Shown here piece by piece: positions 1,031 through 10,722 of a stretch of 32,608 nucleotides of DNA; position 1 is the first letter of the stretch; each line of letters starts with the position of its first letter. The position numbers and the translations under genes were made by a program. Source of the DNA: Clostridia bacterium (GTDB lineage Bacteria; Bacillota; Bacilli; Brevibacillales; Brevibacillaceae); NCBI GenBank assembly GCA_050262535.1, contig JBLNEJ010000042.1, forward strand, positions 1 to 32,608, written 5' to 3'. Under the pieces are notes generated by a model. The model saw only the letters and a list, made by a program, of their open reading frames with translations. It did no database searches and was not told where the DNA came from.

Positions 1031-1933
1031 TTATTTTTCCATGACTTGTTGCGCATTTCGTTTGATTGACGTCTTACGTCCTTTGGCGACAACCAGCACG
1101 ATCAGCAAGGCAGCTGACACTGCTGCAGGGGTCAATGCCTCGTTCAGGAGCAAGGCAGCCCACAGGATGGAGAAAAAGGGCTGCAGGTATTGAATCTGAC
1201 TGACGCGGGCCACTCCGGCAAGCGCCATTCCACCGTACCACCAGAGGAATCCGACAAATTGGCTGATGATGCTGACATACCCGAAGGCAAGCCATGCCGA
1301 TAACGGCGCATGGATGATCTCCTCGGAAAATGTCAGCCCGACGGGTATAAGCAGAAACGGCGCTGCGATCACCAGTGCCCAGCTGATCACCTGCCAGCTG
1401 CCCATATCAGCAGCCAGCCGCCCGCCCTCTGCATAGCCGATTGCCGCCAAAAGCACCGCTCCTACCAGCGCAAGGTCTGCCCATTGCAAGCTTCCCATCC
1501 CTGCGTACCATGCATAAGCAAGCACGATGAGACTCCCGGTGACACTGGCCGCCCAGAACCGCATGGAAGGGTTCTCCCCAGCACGAAAAACGGCTGCGCC
1601 TGCCGTCGCAAGCGGAAGCAACGCGATCACCAGCGCACCATGAATCGCCGGCAGCTGATTCATCGCCCATGAGGTTAGCAAGGGAAAGCCGACCACTACC
1701 CCAAGCGCCACAATCAACAGGCTTCGTACCTGTGACCAGGAATGAAGCCGTTCCCGTTTTACATAAAGAAGAATCCCTGCAAGCACTGCAGCAACAAGCG
1801 CACGGCCCAAGCCGACCAACGTCGGGTTGATCCATTCCACTGCCATGCGCGTCAGTGGCAAGGTAAAGCTGAAAGCAAGCACGCCTAAAAACCCGTATAA
1901 CATTCCTTTGGAATCCCGGTTTATCGTCCCCAT
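1031..1933 (-). CDS. EamA/DMT family transporter (about 10 TM)
   Basis: AFSFTLPLTR, VGLGRALVAA, VARVSQIQYLQPFF motifs and two hydrophobic repeats. Start moved from 1957 to ATG 1933, which has GGGAGG upstream. Confidence 0.9.
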   Translation of the reverse strand: MGTINRDSKGMLYGFLGVLAFSFTLPLTRMAVEWINPTLVGLGRALVAAVLAGILLYVKRERLHSWSQVRSLLIVALGVVVGFPLLTSWAMNQLPAIHGALVIALLPLATAGAAVFRAGENPSMRFWAASVTGSLIVLAYAWYAGMGSLQWADLALVGAVLLAAIGYAEGGRLAADMGSWQVISWALVIAAPFLLIPVGLTFSEEIIHAPLSAWLAFGYVSIISQFVGFLWWYGGMALAGVARVSQIQYLQPFFSILWAALLLNEALTPAAVSAALLIVLVVAKGRKTSIKRNAQQVMEK

Positions 1934-1940
1934 CAAAATC

Positions 1941-1983
1941 AAATCCTCCCTTTCCATTTATTATAGAAAGGGAGGATTTTTTT
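1941..1983. terminator. Perfect 14-bp hairpin (terminator and/or RBS sequestrator)
   Basis: aaatcctccctttc (1941-1954) / gaaagggaggattt (1966-1979); the 11-nt loop contains minus-strand TATAAT (1960-1965). Confidence 0.7.
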
Positions 1984-2025
1984 ACCTCAGCCAATTGGCT
2001 GTCAGATTGATCATCCAATTATGTG

Positions 2026-3729
2026 CTACATCCCGCCTGGCGGTGATGTGGTCGAAAGGATTCCTGCTGTCACCAGCACAGCAAGCGCGAGCAGCAGCTC
2101 AACACGAATTCCCCATGCGAGCGCATCAATGGAGGAATGTCTGGAGGATCCCTCTGTTGCAGGCAGTTTGTCAATTTCGGGCAGCAGGATAAACCGATGA
2201 TAAGCAGCCAGGCACAGCGCAGCGCCGAACAAACCAATTTTCCACATCCAGACAATTCCGTAGCCTGTCTGGATCAGCTCGTTCGGGGAACGGAAGCGCA
2301 GCAGGCTCAATATGACTCCGGACAACACAACAACCGCGACCGAAACAATGGCGATACGCGAAAATTGCTTCATGAGATCCCGCAGCTCCAGCAGCATGGC
2401 CTTTGACGGCTTGGTAGCAAATGAAAGCAGCGTCAACCCGACCAAGCCCCCGACCCATACCGCCGCGAACGCAACGTGCAAGACATCCGTCCGTAGCGCG
2501 GTTCCGCTCGCCGCTCCCCCGCTCATGGCGTGCCCGGTAATTGGCAATGTAATCAACAAGCCTAGAGCAAGCAGCGCCTGACTGGTCGTGATCAGCCCGG
2601 AGCTCCGTTTTGGCCAAAATGCCGTCGCAGCCAAAACCGCTGCCAGCAAAGGTCTCACCCAGCTAACGGTTCCCGTAGCTGTCGATGTGAATATGGTCAG
2701 GACATGGTCCCAATACATCGTAACGTCGTTCGTCAGCTTGGAGGCACGCAACAGCACCTCACTCGCTCCCGTCAGGATCAGGATTGGGAGGGCGATCAGA
2801 AAGGCTGCTTTTTGCATACGGACAATCGTCAGCGCAGGTGCAATCGTCTGACGACCGAAGGCAGGCCATGCACGCAAAAAGACAACCCCGCCGGCAAGCG
2901 ACGCAGCCAGTATTTCCGCTGCGCGCAGCACAGCACTCCAGCTACCGCTTCCGCCATTTCCTTGCATATGATTCATATGGCTCATATGATCCATGTGGTC
3001 GTGCGACTGGGTGGATGCCTCTTGCACCAACTGCTCTGCATTGAATTTGGGCACCTGCTTTTCCTGTTGCGGTCCTCCTGCCGATTGTGCAGGCACCTGA
3101 TCCGGCTGGCCCGTTTGCGATCCAGGCATTGTCACGACAGCTGTCTTCACTGCAGGAGCGGCCTGTTTTTGCATTTCCGACTTTGGCTGCTGCTCTTTAT
3201 TACCCGGTTTCACCGGTTGAGCGGTTCGTTGTACGGTCTTGCCGGCAGGCATTGAAGGGGGCTGCTGTCCGGCAGAAGGCGCTGGAGCCGACTGAACCGG
3301 CTGGACGGGTGCGGAATCGACAGCGTCGTCAAGCGACTTCGTTTCCGCTGGCCGGACCTGTGGCAAGGCGACACCGACCGCAAACCGGAATGATCCTTCT
3401 GTTACATGAGTATCCTCAGATAAAATCTGCCATTCGACATGATAAACGCCGTTCGCCAGATTTGGCACCGACAAAATAATCGATTCGTCATTCTCCGTCC
3501 GCTTTGTGGTGGGAATGACCTTTCCTGCGTCATTTCTCAGCGTTGCCTGGCTTACCTCACCATTGATTTTCTCCGTGAATGTCATCCGTATTTCTTGTGG
3601 CGCGGTTTTCAGCTCCGCTTCCTGTGCCGGTGAGGATGCTCCCATGTAGGCATGTGCCCAGATGGTGGCAGGGAACAGCAACAGCGCAGCCAAACCAACA
3701 CTCCACAGACTGAGCAAAATCCGTCTCAT
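2026..3729 (-). CDS. CopC-CopD fusion metal (copper) uptake protein, YcnJ/CutJ-like, with Pro/Gln-rich linker and His/Met tract
   Basis: Signal peptide ends IWA|HAY (His1); CopC SSPA...F.E...YHVEWQILSEDTH; CopD LPITGHA, DVLHVAFAAVWVGG, FSRIA, TGYG...K. Likely start ATG 3729 (AGGTG RBS); 3753 is possible. Confidence 0.88.
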   Translation of the reverse strand: MRRILLSLWSVGLAALLLFPATIWAHAYMGASSPAQEAELKTAPQEIRMTFTEKINGEVSQATLRNDAGKVIPTTKRTENDESIILSVPNLANGVYHVEWQILSEDTHVTEGSFRFAVGVALPQVRPAETKSLDDAVDSAPVQPVQSAPAPSAGQQPPSMPAGKTVQRTAQPVKPGNKEQQPKSEMQKQAAPAVKTAVVTMPGSQTGQPDQVPAQSAGGPQQEKQVPKFNAEQLVQEASTQSHDHMDHMSHMNHMQGNGGSGSWSAVLRAAEILAASLAGGVVFLRAWPAFGRQTIAPALTIVRMQKAAFLIALPILILTGASEVLLRASKLTNDVTMYWDHVLTIFTSTATGTVSWVRPLLAAVLAATAFWPKRSSGLITTSQALLALGLLITLPITGHAMSGGAASGTALRTDVLHVAFAAVWVGGLVGLTLLSFATKPSKAMLLELRDLMKQFSRIAIVSVAVVVLSGVILSLLRFRSPNELIQTGYGIVWMWKIGLFGAALCLAAYHRFILLPEIDKLPATEGSSRHSSIDALAWGIRVELLLALAVLVTAGILSTTSPPGGM

Positions 3730-3754
3730 CTTGCACTTCACCTGACGTTTCATC

Positions 3755-4816
3755 TTATTTCTTTGCCGTGTACACCAGCAAAGCAGGCTCCACTGCTCCT
3801 ACAGGCGCAAGGTACTCAACCGTTCCACCCAATCCTTCCACCGCCGAGCGCAATTCCACATTGCCTGTTCCGGCAAAATTCGGGTTCACATATGTTTTCA
3901 CGAAAGCAGCGGATACGGTCAGCTTGCCGTTCTTGTTCTCGGTCTTGACATCTGTGATCGGCTTTCCGTTTACATAAAGGACCGGACTTTTTGTTTGAAC
4001 CGCTTTGGGCAGCAGACTTTTTCCATTTTGCACCGTAAATGTCATGGTTGCTTCATAATTGGTCGTATCGTATTTGCCTGCTTCTTTTTCATCTGTTGCC
4101 GGCTTGGCGCGAAGCAGGTAGTAATCGGCAGGACCTGTTGTAAAGCTGATGACTCCGTTTGCATCTGTCTTCACGATTTGGGAATCGGACGTACTGCGGC
4201 GGATGATCGTCACTTCTGTATTCGCCAAAGGCTTGCCTTTGAGCAGTAACTGAACGGCCACCTGTTGATCCGGTGTAATTGCAGCCGGATTAAACTGCGG
4301 AACCAGTTCGGCGCGATCCGTACTGATCGCTTTACCAAAGCCTTTCAATGGCTTTACCCGTTCAACCGTCGGAATATCGCTTACGGCAACAAACGATTTG
4401 GCACTGCGCAACGTACGGCTTGCCACCTCTGCGCCTTTGAAAATGCTGTCGCCTTCCACCGAAACGATATAGGCTCCCGGATTGGATGCAGAGAAAGAAG
4501 CGACGAAAAAGTTGTCATTGCTCGGCTGCTCAACTTCTTTTACTTCTCCCGAATAAAACAGTGTATCAGTGATGTCTGCCTTCACTCCGCTCGGTGATAC
4601 GACATAAACCTTCGAAGACTCCGGGCTCCATTTGCCTGCAATGCGGTAGCTTGCATGATGGTTGGAGTGGTTTCCCAGCATGAGCTCCACATAGGAAACC
4701 TCCCCTTGGGAAATGATCGGCGCATTCGTTTGGGACCAGCCGTCATGGGCCAAAGCCGGTGCCGTCAAGGTAAAGATCAATGCCGCTACTGTTAAAAGTG
4801 AAGCCAGTTTTTTCAT
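3755..4816 (-). CDS. Secreted DUF4198 (NikM-like metal-uptake-associated) protein with C-terminal copper-amine-oxidase-N-like domain
   Basis: Signal peptide MKKLASLL...ALA|HDGW; ELMLGNH..H; RSAKSFV; ELVP; VQLLLKGKPLANTEV; KTDANG; ATMTF; C-terminal VLYVNGK...VELRSAVEGLGGTVEY. Start ATG 4816 (GGGGG RBS). Confidence 0.75.
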   Translation of the reverse strand: MKKLASLLTVAALIFTLTAPALAHDGWSQTNAPIISQGEVSYVELMLGNHSNHHASYRIAGKWSPESSKVYVVSPSGVKADITDTLFYSGEVKEVEQPSNDNFFVASFSASNPGAYIVSVEGDSIFKGAEVASRTLRSAKSFVAVSDIPTVERVKPLKGFGKAISTDRAELVPQFNPAAITPDQQVAVQLLLKGKPLANTEVTIIRRSTSDSQIVKTDANGVISFTTGPADYYLLRAKPATDEKEAGKYDTTNYEATMTFTVQNGKSLLPKAVQTKSPVLYVNGKPITDVKTENKNGKLTVSAAFVKTYVNPNFAGTGNVELRSAVEGLGGTVEYLAPVGAVEPALLVYTAKK

Positions 4817-4842
4817 GGACACAATTCCCCCTAGGACAGAAC

Positions 4843-4861
4843 GATTATGATTCTCAGTATC
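4843..4861 (-). promoter_or_regulatory. Fur box
   Basis: GATACTGAGAATCATAATC matches 16/19 of consensus GATAATGATAATCATTATC; lies between a TATACT -10-like hexamer (4869-4874) and the RBS. Confidence 0.75.
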
Positions 4862-4936
4862 GCTCCCCAGTATACAAGGGAACCAAGCCCATTGAATATG
4901 ACCCGGTTGGGCCATTCCATCCGGTGAATGTGTCGT

Positions 4937-6640
4937 CTACACGTTGAATTTGCTTAACTCCTTATCCAGCGTGCCGGCCATTTCCTCCAATTGGCCAGCC
5001 CTTTGGGCCAACTGTTCTACGGTCGCCGATTGTTCCTTAGCAAAAGTCGAAACCTCTTCTGATGATGCTTTCGTTCGCTCGATGATCTCAACAATTCCAC
5101 CCGTTTCGGAGACGATGCCCTGCATCATGGTATCAACCTGCGAAAGCGAGGTTTGCAGTTCCTTCACATTGCTCTCGGTCAATTCGACCTGCTTGACAAT
5201 GACCGAAAGCGAGTCGCCGCCCTCCCGAATAATATCGAGCTGACGTTTTACCGAAGCCAGATTCCCTTCCATCGTCTCGACTGTTTCAGTGGTCTCCTTC
5301 TGGATGGAGGAAATGAGGCCTGTAATCTGCTGGGCCGCCTGATTCGATTGTTCCGCCAGCACCCGCACCTCATTGGCAACAACCGCAAAGCCTTTTCCTT
5401 GCTCACCAGCACGCGCTGCTTCAATGGCGGCGTTTAGCGCCAGCAGGTTGGTTTGGCTGGAGATTTGGGAAATGGCCGTGATGATTCCGCCAATTTCGTC
5501 CGAGCGATTGCCCAGCCGCTGAATGGAATCTGTCGCAAACTGGACGGTTTCCGTGACATCCCCCAAGTGGGCAATCGCTTCGTTGATGGCAATCTCTCCA
5601 CGTCGGGCCTCCTCCGTGGAGTGCATGGCGGTTTGGACAATCGTCTGAGCCTTTTCGTCCCCCCGATGAATCTGGGTCTTTGCTTTTTCCAGGTAGTCGA
5701 GCACAGTGCTGGCCCGCTCGGCCTGTCGATTCGCTCCACCCGCTACCTCCGCAATCGCTGCCGCGATCTCATGAGCTGCTATTCCCGTCTGATGGGCAAC
5801 CCGATTGACATCCGTGCCGCTCTCCACCAATCGTGTGGAAACCTGCATCAGCTGTTTGACCAAGTTGGACAGGCTACTGACCATTCGATTGAAGTTCTGG
5901 GAAAGCTGTCCGATCTCATCGTTACTGTTCACTTCAAGCGGCGGCAAGGTGAAATCTCCGTTTGTGACACAGTTTAGATGATGGTTTATACGGCTCAACG
6001 GCTTGATATGCTTTTTCACCAGAATGAACGTGACAAGTGCGGCGGCAACCGGCAAGATACAGCCGGCAATGATCGTAAACTTCACCATTTCCCATGTCCG
6101 TTCCGCGACAATACTCGCATCAAAATCGATGGCATTGAGGGCGATGATTTCCTGTGCGGGGTCGTTATGCAAAAAAATGGGCGCGTAGCCTGTGATTCTT
6201 GTCAGATTGGCAAATTCATACGTATCAGTGTAATCTGGGTGCTTCATCTGCTTGATCATGTCCACAGCCTGCTGATCCAGATAAAATCGGTCACCTGCAT
6301 GAAAGCCTTGCTTTTTCATTGACTCGTCCACGGCGAGCAAGGTGCCATCCAGACTGATCACATATTGGTTTTGAAAGATTGGCTTTTGTGCGATCGTCCA
6401 GCTGATTTGCTTTTCTACCTGTTCCAGGCGAGATTGATCTCCTTTCAACAGAGCGTATATATCCTCGGACGCGACCAACCCTGTTGTGATGTTGGCACAT
6501 CCAATCAACTCGATCCCTGCCGCCTTCTTTACTTGCTCATAGCTTGTTTGATAGCTGATGAGCGTAACGAGTCCGATGCTGACCAACACAATCGTCAAGA
6601 CGACAATGGAAATTTTCGCGGTAATACCAAGCTTGTTCAC
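4937..6640 (-). CDS. Methyl-accepting chemotaxis protein (Cache-like sensor, HAMP, signalling domain)
   Basis: [37 protein letters not shown] signature; two TMs; [16 protein letters not shown]. Start GTG 6640 with GGAAGG RBS. Confidence 0.95.
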
Positions 6641-6774
6641 ACGACCACCCTTCCCTCTTTCATGATTCGTTCTTTCCCCTGTGTTCCAAAAGATAAACCT
6701 AATAGGAAACATTGTTTGGTCGTGGAGATTTTGTCTCCCTGTACGAGAAGAATGTGAAGAGGTCCGTTCCACGT

Positions 6775-6829
6775 AAAAAAGAAGGGGTGTCTCTCAAGCC
6801 ATCGATCTGCTTGAGAGACCTCCCTTCTT
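6775..6829 (-). terminator. Strong intrinsic terminator ending the transcript antisense to the helD leader
   Basis: Perfect stem gtctctcaagc/gcttgagagac (6789-6819), extended by aagaaggg/cccttctt, with U6 tail (6775-6780) on the minus strand. Confidence 0.85.
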
Positions 6830-6833
6830 CGTA

Positions 6834-6862
6834 TTGAATTCACTCAAAGTCTATGGTAAAAT
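6834..6862 (+). promoter_or_regulatory. sigmaA promoter of helD
   Basis: TTGAAT (6834-6839) - 17 bp - TAAAAT (6857-6862) with extended -10 TG (6854-6855). Confidence 0.7.
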
Positions 6863-6915
6863 GAAGAGTGGTTTTCCATATTTTCGTTAAAATAATAATA
6901 TTTTCCCACACTATT

Positions 6916-6944
6916 ATTTTAACAAAAAACGATCGCTTTGTCAA
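6916..6944 (-). promoter_or_regulatory. Near-consensus sigmaA promoter convergent with the helD promoter
   Basis: TTGACA (6944-6939) - 17 bp - TAAAAT (6921-6916) with extended -10 TG. Confidence 0.85.
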
Positions 6945-6987
6945 ACCATGAAAGCAACAAAAAATGATCGAAAGAGGGTGCCCGCAT

Positions 6988-9330
6988 ATGAGTGCAACAC
7001 GCGACGAGGAACAGCAACAGGTTGAACGAGTGATTGCCGAAACCGATCGCCGCATCGCATCTCTTGAGCAGCAGGTAAGTGACGTGGCCGCAGATATCGT
7101 GGACATTCGCACACATTTTTGGGATGATGTGACCGTCAATTTTGACGCGCCTGAGGAAGCAATGGAAACCTATGCCAGCATGAAGCAGCAGGCTGAGGTT
7201 CTATCGGAGCGGGAACGTACCCACCAGCATGCGAGCAAACAGCTCAAGACGTTAAAGCGTCTGCGTCGTTCCCCGTATTTCGGCCGGATTGATTTTCAGG
7301 AGGAAGACCAATCCCACGCAGAAACGCTTTATGTCGGCATCGCCTCGCTTTTGGATGAACACGAGGATCATTTTTTGATTTACGATTGGCGCGCCCCGGT
7401 TTCCAGTCTGTATTACGACTTTTCCCCCGGGCCGGCTCACTATGAAACACCAGGCGGCACCATCTCGGGCGTAATGGAGCTCAAGCGCCAGTTTATGATT
7501 GCGGATGGCGTGATCCAGAGCATGTTCGACACCGATGTGACGATTGGCGACGAGCTGCTGCAGGATGTTCTCGGAAAACAAGCCAGCACCCAAATGAAAA
7601 GCATCGTGGCGACGATCCAGAAGGAGCAAAATCGTTTGATCCGCAATGAACGGGGACGCGTACTTGTGGTCCAAGGGGCAGCGGGAAGCGGCAAAACGTC
7701 CGCTGCTTTGCAGCGGGTCGCCTACCTGCTGTATCGCTTTCGCACCACGCTGCGCGCCGATCAGATCGTGCTCTTTTCGCCTAATCCGCTGTTTAACAGC
7801 TATGTTTCTACGGTGCTTCCCGAACTTGGTGAAGAGAATATGCAGCAGGCCACCTATCAGGAATATTTGGAGCATCGACTCGGCGGCCGCTTTTTGCTGG
7901 AAGATCCTTTTTCCCAGCTGGAATATGTCCATACGGCCATGCGCGAATCCGGCTATGAGGCGCGGATGGCAGGGATTCGATTCAAGTCGTCTTTCCCCTT
8001 TATTCATATGATTGAACGTTATGTGGAGCGCTTGCGAACATCCGGGATGCACTTTAGCGACATTCGCTTTCGCGGGCGCGTCTTGATCTCCGGCGAGCAG
8101 ATCAAGGAGCGCTTTTACGCGCTTGATTCATCTCTGGCCATCCCGAACCGGATTGGTCTTCTCACCGACATGCTGCTTGCCGACTTGAAAGCATGTGCGG
8201 CTCGTGAGCGCAAAAAGCCGTGGGTGGAAGAAGAGGTGCAGTTGCTCGACAAAGATGCTTTCGCGAAGGTGTATCAGCAGCTTCGCCGGAAAAAGCGACT
8301 CTCCGGGGATACGTTCGATGACTTTGACATGGAGCAAAAACTGCTTGCCAACATGGTTGTTGCCGATGCGTTCAAGCCGTTGCGGCAGCAAGTGAAGCAG
8401 GCCAGCTTCGTGGATGTGCAGGCTATCTACCGCCAATTGTTTGATGATTCCGGCCTTGTGAGCGAGCTGGGCCATGCCATCGAGCTTCCCGATCAATGGG
8501 AAGAGATGTGCCAGCAGACCGTGATGAAGCTGGATCAAGGCGAGCTTTCCTACGAGGATGCGACGCCCTATCTGTACCTGCAGGAGCAGCTGGAAGGCTT
8601 CCAGACCAACACTGCCGTGCGCCATGTCCTGATCGATGAGGCGCAGGATTATTCCGCGTTCCAGTTTGCGTTTATCAAGCGTCTTTTTCCCTATAGCAAG
8701 CTGACTGTGCTTGGTGATCTGAATCAGGCTATTTACGCACACGCTGATGCCGCCGATTTTGGCCCGTTAGCGGTCCTCTATGGAGAAGCACAGACCGAGA
8801 CGATCATGCTGACGCGCAGCTATCGGTCGACCCGACAGATTGTCGAATTCACACGCCATCTCTTGGCGGGGGCACCCCTAATCGTGCCTTTCAACAGAAA
8901 CGGTCCGCTTCCCACGATAACAAAAACCGCAAGCCCCGTGGAGCTTGCGGTGTTGATCAAAGAACGCATCCGTTCCCTGGAGGCAGTCGGTCACCGATCG
9001 ATTGCCGTCATTTGCAAAACAGCAAAGGAATGCGAGGATGCATACACGGCATTGAAGGAAGAGCTTCCCTTGCGCCTGATTGACAAGGAAACCGTTTCCT
9101 TTGAACCGGGCACGCTGGTTATCCCTGCTTATTTGGCCAAAGGGGTGGAGTTCGATGCGGTCGTGCTCTATAACAGTTCCTCTGCGCAATATGGGCGAGA
9201 AAGCGAGCGAAAGCTTCTTTATACGGCCTGCACGCGTGCCATGCACGAGCTTCATGTTTACAGTCTGGGTGATTTCAGCCCCTTCTTCGCCTCTGCCCCT
9301 CCCGAGACGTATGTCGCGGAAAACATGTGA
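6988..9330 (+). CDS. helD: RNA polymerase recycling motor ATPase HelD (SF1 helicase-like)
   Basis: SPYFGRIDF, LIYDWRAPVSSLYY, MKSIVATIQKEQN, Walker A GAAGSGKT, DEAQD, GDLNQ, SYRST, AKGVEFD, YTACTRAMHEL; about 780 aa. Start ATG 6988 with GAGGGTG RBS. Confidence 0.95.
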   Translation: MSATRDEEQQQVERVIAETDRRIASLEQQVSDVAADIVDIRTHFWDDVTVNFDAPEEAMETYASMKQQAEVLSERERTHQHASKQLKTLKRLRRSPYFGRIDFQEEDQSHAETLYVGIASLLDEHEDHFLIYDWRAPVSSLYYDFSPGPAHYETPGGTISGVMELKRQFMIADGVIQSMFDTDVTIGDELLQDVLGKQASTQMKSIVATIQKEQNRLIRNERGRVLVVQGAAGSGKTSAALQRVAYLLYRFRTTLRADQIVLFSPNPLFNSYVSTVLPELGEENMQQATYQEYLEHRLGGRFLLEDPFSQLEYVHTAMRESGYEARMAGIRFKSSFPFIHMIERYVERLRTSGMHFSDIRFRGRVLISGEQIKERFYALDSSLAIPNRIGLLTDMLLADLKACAARERKKPWVEEEVQLLDKDAFAKVYQQLRRKKRLSGDTFDDFDMEQKLLANMVVADAFKPLRQQVKQASFVDVQAIYRQLFDDSGLVSELGHAIELPDQWEEMCQQTVMKLDQGELSYEDATPYLYLQEQLEGFQTNTAVRHVLIDEAQDYSAFQFAFIKRLFPYSKLTVLGDLNQAIYAHADAADFGPLAVLYGEAQTETIMLTRSYRSTRQIVEFTRHLLAGAPLIVPFNRNGPLPTITKTASPVELAVLIKERIRSLEAVGHRSIAVICKTAKECEDAYTALKEELPLRLIDKETVSFEPGTLVIPAYLAKGVEFDAVVLYNSSSAQYGRESERKLLYTACTRAMHELHVYSLGDFSPFFASAPPETYVAENM

Positions 9331-9333
9331 TCG

Positions 9334-10722
9334 CTACACCATTCTCTCCGGACGCAACGCTTCTTCCATCCGCCCGTCCATTATGCCCTGCTCGACAATA
9401 ACGTCGCGCAGGGTTTTGTTTTCTGCATAGGCTTGTTTGGCAATTTGAGCGGCTCGGTCATAGCCGATCAACGGATTGAGCGCCGTCACCAGCGACAGGC
9501 TCGATTCCACCCAGTGACGGCATTGCGCTTCGTCGGCTTCCATTCCGATGATACACCTGTTCGTTAACACTTCACTTGCATTGGCAAGGATCGTGATCGA
9601 TTGAAGCAGATTGTATGCGATGACCGGCATCATTACGTTGATTTCCAGCTGGCTCCCGTTGGCTGCTGTCGTGATCGTCGCATCGTTGCCAATCACCTGG
9701 CTGGCCACCATATAGACCATTTCCAGTATGACCGGATTGACCTTGCCGGGCATGATCGACGAACCTGGCTGAACAGCCGGCAGCCTGAGCTCTGCCAACC
9801 CGGTTCGCGGGCCAGAGCTGAGCAAACGGAGATCACTTGTTATTTTGATCAAATGCACGGCTATTTCACGAAGCAGTCCGCTGATACGCAGGGCTGCCGA
9901 TGTATTTTGCATGAAGGCAAACCGGTTTTGGGGTGCACGAAACGGCAATCCGGTACGCCGCCCAATTTCGGCTATCGATTGCGAGGCATAATCGGGATGC
10001 GCATTGATGCCGGTTCCAACCGCGTTTCCACCCAAGCCGATTTCGAACAAAACCTCCAGTCCTGCCTTTATATCGCGTGTCATTGCCGTGATCGTCTGGG
10101 CGTAGCCGGAGAACTCCTGCCCCAAGCGGATCGGAACAGCGTCCTGCAAATGGGTTCGCCCCGATTTGATGATCGGCATCCATTGCTCAGCCTTTTGCCA
10201 CAAGCTTTTTTCAAGCGTGTTCAAGGCTGGCAGCAGATGATGCACGATTTGCTCGGCAGCGGCAATATTGATGGCAACATGAATCGTATCATTGGTGGAC
10301 TGGGCCATGTTGACATGATCATTCGGATGCACCTGCTGCTGCTCGCGATCACCCAACAGTTCGTTGGCCCGGTTGGCGATCACTTCGTTTGCGTTCATGT
10401 TTTGCGACGTTCCTGCCCCCGCCTGAAAGGCATCGACAACGAAATGAGAATCCCATCTGCCAGCAATCACTTCCTCGGCCGCTTGCAAAATAGCAGCCCC
10501 CAACTTGGGATCAAGCTGATTCAACCGCATATTGGCTGCTGCCGCAGAGGCCTTGATGATCGCTTGCGCCCGAATAAAGGCACGGGGCAGTCTGAGTCCG
10601 CTGATCGGAAAATTCTCGACCGCCCGTTGTGTTTGAGCACCGTACATCGCCTCCCGCGGTACCTTCACCTCACCAAGCGAGTCTTTCATGATGCGATACG
10701 TCTGTTCTACTGTCGTTGTCAT
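9334..10722 (-). CDS. Class II fumarate hydratase / aspartate ammonia-lyase family protein
   Basis: YGAQTQRAVENF, GTSQNMNANEV, HPNDHVN.AQSTND, GRTHLQDA, GSSIMPGKVNP. FumC versus AspA cannot be resolved by eye. Confidence 0.92.
   Translation of the reverse strand: MTTTVEQTYRIMKDSLGEVKVPREAMYGAQTQRAVENFPISGLRLPRAFIRAQAIIKASAAAANMRLNQLDPKLGAAILQAAEEVIAGRWDSHFVVDAFQAGAGTSQNMNANEVIANRANELLGDREQQQVHPNDHVNMAQSTNDTIHVAINIAAAEQIVHHLLPALNTLEKSLWQKAEQWMPIIKSGRTHLQDAVPIRLGQEFSGYAQTITAMTRDIKAGLEVLFEIGLGGNAVGTGINAHPDYASQSIAEIGRRTGLPFRAPQNRFAFMQNTSAALRISGLLREIAVHLIKITSDLRLLSSGPRTGLAELRLPAVQPGSSIMPGKVNPVILEMVYMVASQVIGNDATITTAANGSQLEINVMMPVIAYNLLQSITILANASEVLTNRCIIGMEADEAQCRHWVESSLSLVTALNPLIGYDRAAQIAKQAYAENKTLRDVIVEQGIMDGRMEEALRPERMV

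What the first reader, a model, noticed from the sequence alone, without database searches (positions are those of the whole stretch)
6775..6990. Face-to-face promoters and a terminated antisense RNA upstream of helD: candidate rifamycin/RNAP-stall sensor working by transcriptional interference
Seen: sense promoter TTGAAT-17-TAAAAT (+1 about 6869) faces a closer-to-consensus antisense promoter TTGACA-17-TAAAAT (+1 about 6909), both with extended -10 TG. The antisense transcript crosses the sense promoter and ends at its own terminator (6775-6829), which also shields the MCP gene. Known: HelD/HelR remove stalled or rifampicin-bound RNAP. I recall a convergent dual-promoter rifampicin-sensing arrangement reported for B. 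subtilis helD; this should be verified, and would make it a new instance rather than a new mechanism. Inference: the antisense promoter silences helD until drug-bound RNAP is trapped there.
Basis: partly seen in the sequence, partly recalled or inferred. Interest (0 to 1): 0.8.

Follow-up and report, generated by a model that had tools for sequence, protein, structure and literature searches.

The report
Dual-promoter rifampicin alarm upstream of helD
Upstream of helD, two promoter-like sequences face each other about 40 bases apart with a terminator hairpin behind them, the same layout as a published rifampicin alarm in Bacillus subtilis, so this is likely an ordinary further copy that would switch helD on when the drug jams RNA polymerase.

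Summary
A sense promoter (TTGAAT-17-TG-TAAAAT, 6834-6862) faces an antisense promoter (TTGACA-17-TG-TAAAAT, 6944-6916). A strong minus-strand terminator (6830-6775, -34.5 kcal/mol, z -7.35) lies behind them, and the downstream gene is a class I helD.

It is not chance. It is the better of only two such pairs in the assembly. It recurs before 72 of 110 helD loci (strict rule; shuffles 2 of 2200). A pattern of sigma-A consensus letters gave 32 matches in 41 genomes: 24 before helD, 8 before rph/pps-like genes, none elsewhere.

The mechanism is published for B. subtilis helD and pps (PMC12802891, 2026), whose Table S3 already lists helD copies in many genomes. Start-to-start distance (about 40 bp versus 39) and antisense RNA length (about 135 nt versus the 138-nt long form) match. 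No RNA data exist here, so rifampicin induction is inferred.

Two small additions: the antisense -10 box reads best at 17-18 bp, not the paper's 19. The minus-strand terminator often persists when the neighbouring gene points away.

Verdict: a new member of a known system, low interest.

The parts
6775..6830 (-). Intrinsic terminator of the antisense RNA (hairpin with 9-nt loop, U6 at 6780-6775)
   Evidence: RNAfold -34.5 kcal/mol, z -7.35; no long match elsewhere in the assembly; minus-strand terminator at the same place in 49 of 89 homologous loci versus 16 of 89 on the plus strand
6834..6862 (+). Sense promoter PhelD: -35 TTGAAT, 17-bp spacer, extended -10 TG, -10 TAAAAT
   Evidence: boxes 77-81% identical to 25 relatives, spacer 34%
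6870..6870 (+). Predicted helD transcription start (G)
   Evidence: inferred: purine at position 8 after the -10 box in 76 of 91 loci, pyrimidine at position 7 in 65 of 91
6909..6909 (-). Predicted antisense transcription start (G); about 40 bp from the sense start, both included
   Evidence: inferred: T at position 6 in 86 of 91 and purine at position 7 in 82 of 91 loci
6916..6944 (-). Antisense promoter Panti-helD: -35 TTGACA, 17-bp spacer, extended -10 TG, -10 TAAAAT
   Evidence: TGTCAA invariant in a 13-sequence alignment
6773..6909 (-). Predicted antisense RNA of about 135-137 nt, crossing the whole sense promoter
   Evidence: inferred from promoter and terminator; median 135 nt (113-178) over the 49 loci with a called terminator; no Rfam match at gathering threshold (one search gave only weak matches far below it)
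6971..6979 (+). Ribosome binding site of helD
   Evidence: sequence
6988..9330 (+). helD, class I RNA polymerase recycling motor, 780 aa
   Evidence: HelD_BACSU 1263 bits; B. subtilis HelD chain 6wvk_H E 2.4e-256 over residues 6-775
4937..6640 (-). Divergent neighbour: methyl-accepting chemotaxis protein (context, not part of the conserved element)
   Evidence: Pfam MCPsignal and HAMP; N-terminus aligns with orthologues from GTG 6640

Best explanation
This is a pair of face-to-face sigma-A promoter sequences with a minus-strand terminator upstream of a class I helD gene, and it likely works as the rifampicin alarm described in B. subtilis. Inferred by homology: without drug, frequent firing of the near-consensus antisense promoter would run polymerases across the sense promoter and displace the slower-escaping sense complex, keeping helD low. 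The antisense RNA would end at the hairpin after about 135 nt. At sub-inhibitory rifamycin, a drug-bound polymerase would stall mostly at the busier antisense promoter. A drug-free polymerase could then escape the sense promoter, dislodge it and transcribe helD, and HelD would protect and recycle RNA polymerase. Shown here: the anatomy, its conservation and its restriction to helD and rph/pps-like genes. Not shown here: transcription, relative strengths, escape rates and drug response.
For: (1) Exact anatomy. (2) Conservation: strict pair before 72 of 110 helD loci, own locus included, versus 2 of 2200 shuffles; relaxed pair 91 of 110; distance between the -10 boxes median 53, 48-56 bp in 72 of 91. 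(3) Only the boxes are conserved: identity to 25 relatives 77-99% in boxes, 34-39% in spacers and between promoters, as expected if the act of transcription matters rather than the RNA. (4) A pattern of sigma-A consensus letters gave 32 matches in 25 of 41 genomes and 0 for the reversed control. 24 lie directly before helD (coordinates) and 8 before rph/pps-like genes, the two genes validated in the paper. (5) Paper geometry: 39 bp between starts, a 17-bp deletion abolishes induction, antisense RNAs of about 94 and 138 nt, both starts on G. (6) The RpoB rifampicin-binding region reads like the drug-sensitive type (the comparison residues are recalled, apart from H482, which the paper names). 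(7) Two of three acidic HelD tip residues are kept (D56 to D53, E60 to E57; D57 to A54, with an extra E56).
Against: No transcript, start-site or drug-response data for this organism. Slow escape from the sense promoter, essential in the paper, cannot be read from sequence. No counterpart of the proximal terminator that gives the ~90-nt in-vivo RNA of B. subtilis was found. One of the three tip acids is alanine. 19 of 110 helD loci lacked a pair under the relaxed rule, so the element is not obligatory. Four of these scored 44.6-48.2 bits with the trained matrix and two had under 110 nt of flank. The helD matches are partly circular because the spacing came from helD loci, and kin are not independent. 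'Antisense closer to consensus' in 70 of 91 loci is biased by the selection rule.
Confidence: 0.85

Rival explanations
1. The minus-strand promoter is really the promoter of the divergent MCP gene, the hairpin is an attenuator, and any effect on helD is incidental.
For: No convincing sigma-A or sigma-D promoter between the hairpin and the MCP start: two 8-of-12 sigma-A matches, one lacking the required bases, and no sigma-D match. Orthologous MCPs sit behind a c-di-GMP-II riboswitch (L148) or, by eye, directly behind another gene (L151, L152).
Against: The same promoter pair stands before helD with many different neighbours in both orientations and before rph/pps-like genes. This MCP was found in only 4 of 60 other genomes of the order, on contigs other than the one with their best helD match. 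The hairpin is very stable and has a U6 tail.
Confidence: 0.04
2. Repression comes from the antisense RNA as a molecule (pairing with the helD leader) or from a repressor bound at the 12-bp inverted repeat 6887-6898/6913-6924, not from polymerase collision.
For: The two RNAs would overlap by about 40 nt. A perfect 12-bp inverted repeat overlaps the antisense -10 box.
Against: The sequence between the promoters is not conserved (36% identity). Inverted repeats of 9 bp or more occur in only 12 of 91 loci. The leader fold is not significant (z -1.08). In B. subtilis the effect appears in a minimal in vitro system and depends on promoter order and distance.
Confidence: 0.04
3. The same interference operates, but the main natural signal is any drop in initiation at the antisense promoter (low GTP, sporulation, other initiation inhibitors), with rifamycins only one trigger.
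For: The paper notes the higher GTP requirement of the antisense promoter and higher helD expression in sporulation. The antisense start is predicted to be G or A in 82 of 91 loci. No rph above cut-off was found in this 77%-complete assembly.
Against: The only other gene class under the strict pattern is the rifamycin phosphotransferase family. In B. subtilis, rpoB H482Y abolishes induction.
Confidence: 0.06
4. Chance consensus matches in an AT-rich intergenic stretch.
For: The region is AT-rich, and the local scan excess is modest (5 versus 1.9 +/- 1.3).
Against: 72 of 110 versus 2 of 2200 shuffles; top pair in the assembly with 0 in the reversed control; 32 versus 0.
Confidence: 0.01

Closest known systems
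PhelD / Panti-helD dual-promoter rifampicin sensor of Bacillus subtilis (Sudzinova et al., NAR 2026, PMC12802891)
   Same: Same gene (class I helD); same order (weaker-looking sense promoter, TTGACA antisense promoter in the 5' leader); about 40 versus 39 bp between starts; predicted G starts; terminated antisense RNA crossing the sense promoter, about 135-137 nt versus the 138-nt long form.
   Different: Antisense spacer 17 bp with a correctly placed TG (the paper assigns 19 bp, noting an 18-bp alternative). One terminator found instead of two, so no ~90-nt form is predicted. The neighbour is a divergent MCP gene, so the terminator is not shared with a co-directional gene as with yvgT. HelD tip has D-A-x-E-E instead of D-D-x-x-E.
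Ppps / Panti-pps of B. subtilis (rifamycin phosphotransferase pps/rph; same paper)
   Same: Same architecture; 8 relatives' rph/pps-like genes match the same strict pattern.
   Different: Different downstream gene; no rph above cut-off found in this incomplete assembly.
Rifamycin-associated element (RAE) of Actinobacteria, before helR/class II helD (as described in the paper's Discussion)
   Same: Rifamycin-linked control of a HelD-family gene from its upstream region.
   Different: RAE is a 19-bp palindrome. The protein here is class I (HelR models 122-144 bits against cut-offs 750-1100), and the local inverted repeat is not conserved.

Membership tests
B. subtilis-type dual-promoter rifampicin sensor | Convergent sigma-A promoters within 300 bp upstream of the gene, antisense promoter inside the 5' leader | tested here: met
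   antisense -35 ends 43 bp before the ATG
B. subtilis-type dual-promoter rifampicin sensor | Distance that lets both polymerases sit (39 bp start to start; 45-100 bp between -10 boxes in the paper's search) | tested here: met
   53 bp between -10 boxes, about 40 bp between predicted starts; paper rows 18==50==19 for helD and 17==52==19 for pps
B. subtilis-type dual-promoter rifampicin sensor | Downstream gene is helD or pps/rph | tested here: met
   HelD_BACSU 1263 bits, cut-off 419
B. subtilis-type dual-promoter rifampicin sensor | Short antisense RNA ended by an intrinsic terminator upstream of the sense promoter | tested here: met
   Met at sequence level only: hairpin plus U6; the RNA itself was not observed
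B. subtilis-type dual-promoter rifampicin sensor | Antisense promoter stronger, sense promoter slow to escape | not testable with these tools
   Consensus match 11 versus 9 of 12 is only suggestive; escape kinetics need in vitro assays
B. subtilis-type dual-promoter rifampicin sensor | Induction by sub-MIC rifampicin, lost on antisense -10 mutation or with rifampicin-resistant RNAP | not testable with these tools
   Needs a reporter or RNA-seq with and without drug
B. subtilis-type dual-promoter rifampicin sensor | 19-bp antisense spacer (the paper's speculation, not a tested requirement) | tested here: not met
   17 bp here. Over 91 loci a valid -10 with TG occurs at 17 bp in 37, 18 bp in 13 and 19 bp in 0; mean match is lowest at 19 (loci were pre-selected with 17/18 spacers, but, which allowed 16-19, also chose 19 in 0 of 72). 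I do not treat this as defining.
Class I HelD | Full-length match with the long N-terminal secondary-channel arm | tested here: met
   residues 5-775 match profile positions 8-779; 6wvk_H aligned over 6-775
Class I HelD | Acidic tip D56/D57/E60 needed for rifampicin protection | tested here: inconclusive
   D53, A54, E57 plus E56; tips of homologues are variable but acid-rich
Actinobacterial RAE element | Conserved 19-bp palindrome before a class II helD/helR | tested here: not met
   Protein is class I; no conserved palindrome. The RAE sequence itself was not searched.

The most novel reading that the evidence does not exclude
In this genome the alarm has captured a chemoreceptor. The divergent MCP gene has no recognisable promoter of its own and would be fed only by read-through of the antisense terminator, so a rifamycin that jams the antisense promoter would switch helD on and the chemoreceptor off with one stalled polymerase.
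Probability: 0.06. Interest if true: 0.45.

Novelty: new member of a known kind. Interest (0 to 1): 0.14.

Why it matters
It extends a 2026 mechanism, antibiotic sensing without a sensor protein, to another lineage of Bacilli. The mechanism and its spread are already in print, so a specialist would not be surprised. Two refinements could be useful. First, a strict pattern picks only helD and rph/pps-like genes (32 of 32 matches in 41 genomes), so in these genomes the regulon looks much narrower than the 18,798 genes of the paper's looser search. Second, the comparative register of the antisense -10 box is 17-18 bp, which questions the paper's suggestion that an unusual 19-bp spacer matters.

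Tried and rejected
Sequencing runs: no RNA holder listed; four DNA soil-metagenome runs with small shares. Laid contigs did not cover 6810-7013, so they give no evidence either way.

Hairpin as a dispersed repeat: no match longer than 18 nt elsewhere in the assembly.

Known RNA family in the region: none at gathering threshold.

MCP leader as a decayed c-di-GMP-II riboswitch: it looked similar by eye to the leader of the G011 orthologue, but 191 of 500 shuffles scored as well. Rejected.

12-bp inverted repeat as an operator: not conserved.

Other copies of the element in G000: none before a recognisable rifamycin gene. The only other convergent pair (C384) lies before a predicted small regulator-like ORF. 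rph was not found above cut-off; C29 holds a PEP-utiliser-like gene cut by the contig start.

My first upstream-gene orientation heuristic miscalled the own locus and was replaced. Only the 29 loci called divergent were scanned with Pfam, and 21 were verified. The 56 called co-directional were not verified.

Literature: searches found only PMC12802891 on this mechanism. Earlier scan findings: none. Whether this species is in the paper's Table S3 could not be told: the file was cut at 11,038 rows and lists accessions, not names.

Full report
Observation. The sequence and the consensus scan show a plus-strand promoter TTGAAT-17-TAAAAT at 6834-6862 and a minus-strand promoter TTGACA-17-TAAAAT at 6944-6916. 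Both have TG at the extended -10 position, and 53 bp lie between the -10 boxes. The minus strand of 6830-6775 folds into a long hairpin with a 9-nt loop followed by U6 (-34.5 kcal/mol, z -7.35, 0 of 200 shuffles). One search's terminator list missed it, consistent with that tool's loop limit of 8. There is no U-run on the plus side, and the hairpin is not a dispersed repeat. The downstream ORF 6988-9330 is a class I HelD (HelD_BACSU 1263 bits, cut-off 419; B. subtilis HelD E 2.4e-256). The divergent neighbour is an MCP starting at about 6640. I did not establish its family name.

Chance. A generic scan of the assembly (4.13 Mb, 77% complete) gave 2 convergent pairs 44-72 bp apart, this one best, and 0 in the reversed assembly. 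Matrices trained on homologues with this locus left out gave it as the only hit. Among 110 helD loci (80; 30, the own locus included; four with under 200 nt of flank), a strict generic rule found a convergent pair in 72, against 2 of 2200 dinucleotide shuffles. A relaxed rule found 91. Of the 19 misses, four (including two same-genus genomes) scored 44.6-48.2 bits with the matrix and two had too little flank. The rest appear to lack the element. Kin are not independent, so these counts show conservation rather than a probability.

What is conserved. The boxes are conserved and the sequence between them is not: identity to 25 relatives is 77-99% in boxes and 34-39% in spacers and the middle (alignment). 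The -10 to -10 distance has median 53, with 72 of 91 at 48-56 and 16 at 61-69. Base preferences after the -10 boxes point to starts at G6870 and G6909, 40 bp apart inclusive. A minus-strand terminator was called within 100 nt upstream of the sense -35 in 49 of 89 loci (2 of 91 dropped for short flank). A plus-strand one was called in 16 of 89, and a minus-strand one in 14 of 86 control windows further up. The implied RNA has median length 135 nt. Of 29 loci called as having a divergent neighbour, 21 were verified by Pfam, and 11 of these 21 have the terminator. There it cannot be the end of an upstream gene and so belongs to the antisense unit. The strict caller missed short hairpins seen (for example L005, L012, L013, L080), so this may be an undercount.

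Which genes carry it. A pattern of sigma-A consensus letters with this spacing gave 32 matches in 25 of 41 genomes and 0 for the reversed control. By coordinates, 24 lie directly before helD. The other 8 lie before rph/pps-like genes. Seven were scanned as 487-residue N-terminal pieces cut by the locus, with 735-777 bits on RIF_Ptrans_rph and higher scores on two PRK06241 models, all below the full-length cut-offs. One was scanned full length at 1500 bits, cut-off 999. By eye these rph elements also carry the minus-strand hairpin and U-run. The helD part is partly circular; the rph part is independent. No rph above cut-off was found in G000. RpoB in G000 shows a rifampicin-binding region of the sensitive type (the comparison residues are recalled, apart from H482 named in the paper). 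The HelD tip keeps two of the three acids shown to matter.

What is known. PMC12802891 (NAR 2026) describes this system for B. subtilis helD and pps. I read the abstract, introduction, part of the methods, section 37, section 42, parts 2-4 of 4 of the results, the discussion, supplement parts 1-2, and searched rows of the supplement. Figures S8, S11 and S13 are images I could not see, and Table S3 was cut at 11,038 rows. The paper shows a stronger, fast-escaping antisense promoter, a slow sense promoter and 39 bp between starts. It reports antisense RNAs of about 90-94 nt (in vivo) and 138 nt (in vitro). Induction is lost on antisense -10 mutation, promoter swap, a 17-bp deletion or rpoB H482Y. 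Its Table S3 already lists helD copies in many other genomes. Searches found no other paper on the mechanism in this library.

Differences from the published case. (a) One terminator, matching the long form; no proximal one was found. (b) The neighbour is divergent. (c) The antisense spacer is 17 bp, whereas the paper assigns 19 bp and speculates that this matters. Over 91 loci a valid -10 with TG occurs at 17 bp in 37, 18 bp in 13 and 19 bp in none, and the mean match is lowest at 19. Those loci were pre-selected at 17/18, but, which allowed 16-19 with a half-point penalty for spacers other than 17, picked 19 in 0 of 72. Read by eye from the paper's primer rows, the B. subtilis antisense promoters also fit TAAAAT at 18 bp (helD, an alternative the paper mentions) and TATAAT at 17 bp (pps). 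This is a comparative inference, not an experiment.

Mechanism. I commit, at 0.85, to transcriptional interference relieved by rifamycin-arrested polymerase at the antisense promoter. The anatomy, conservation and gene specificity are shown here. Transcription, kinetics and drug response are inferred from B. subtilis. The rivals are an MCP promoter with an attenuator (0.04), an RNA- or repressor-mediated effect (0.04), a broader initiation or GTP signal (0.06) and chance (0.01). No convincing promoter was found in the 134 bp before the MCP start. The gene is rare in the order (4 of 60 other genomes). An apparent likeness of its leader to a c-di-GMP-II riboswitch leader was not significant. That leaves a small chance (0.06) that the MCP depends on read-through.

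Verdict. The feature is real and correctly read, and it is a new member of a recently published, widespread system. Interest 0.14.

Noticed in passing
window 6887-6898 and 6913-6924: Perfect 12-bp inverted repeat that mirrors the antisense -10 box onto the plus strand (a second TAAAAT at 6889-6894 with no -35). Repeats of 9 bp or more occur in only 12 of 91 homologues.
   Followed up: yes
window 6641-6775, minus strand: No convincing sigma-A or sigma-D promoter in the 134 bp between the terminator and the MCP start; how the MCP gene is transcribed is unexplained.
   Followed up: partly
L148 2384-2467 (G011): The orthologous MCP gene is preceded by a c-di-GMP-II riboswitch (71.2 bits). L151 and L152 have none and by eye follow directly on another gene.
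   Followed up: partly
window 9330-9334: helD and a convergent fumarase/aspartase-family gene (9334-10722, minus) end 3 bp apart, leaving no intergenic space for a terminator.
   Followed up: no
G000 C20 3928-5388, minus strand: A second, distant HelD-like gene (26-29% identity), cut by the contig end, so its upstream region cannot be read.
   Followed up: partly
G000 C384 1269-1389: The only other convergent sigma-A pair in the assembly, before a 149-aa ORF that looks like a helix-turn-helix regulator by eye.
   Followed up: no
G000 C29 1-1760: A PEP-utiliser-like system in two ORFs, cut by the contig start; weak match to Rph (119.5 bits, cut-off 999).
   Followed up: partly
L010, L015, L016, L018, L021, L023, L029, L033, L039, L046, L047, L070, L077: helD loci without the promoter pair, suggesting loss or replacement of the sensor in some Mesobacillus, Paenibacillus and Ectobacillus lineages.
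   Followed up: no
L056-L058, L061, L063-L065, L067-L069, L072-L074: A Paenibacillus/Cohnella-type subgroup has a longer distance between the -10 boxes (62-69 bp), about one helical turn more than the main group.
   Followed up: no
window 1031-4915, minus strand: EamA transporter, fused CopC-CopD and DUF4198 genes downstream of the MCP gene, a likely copper-related cluster.
   Followed up: no
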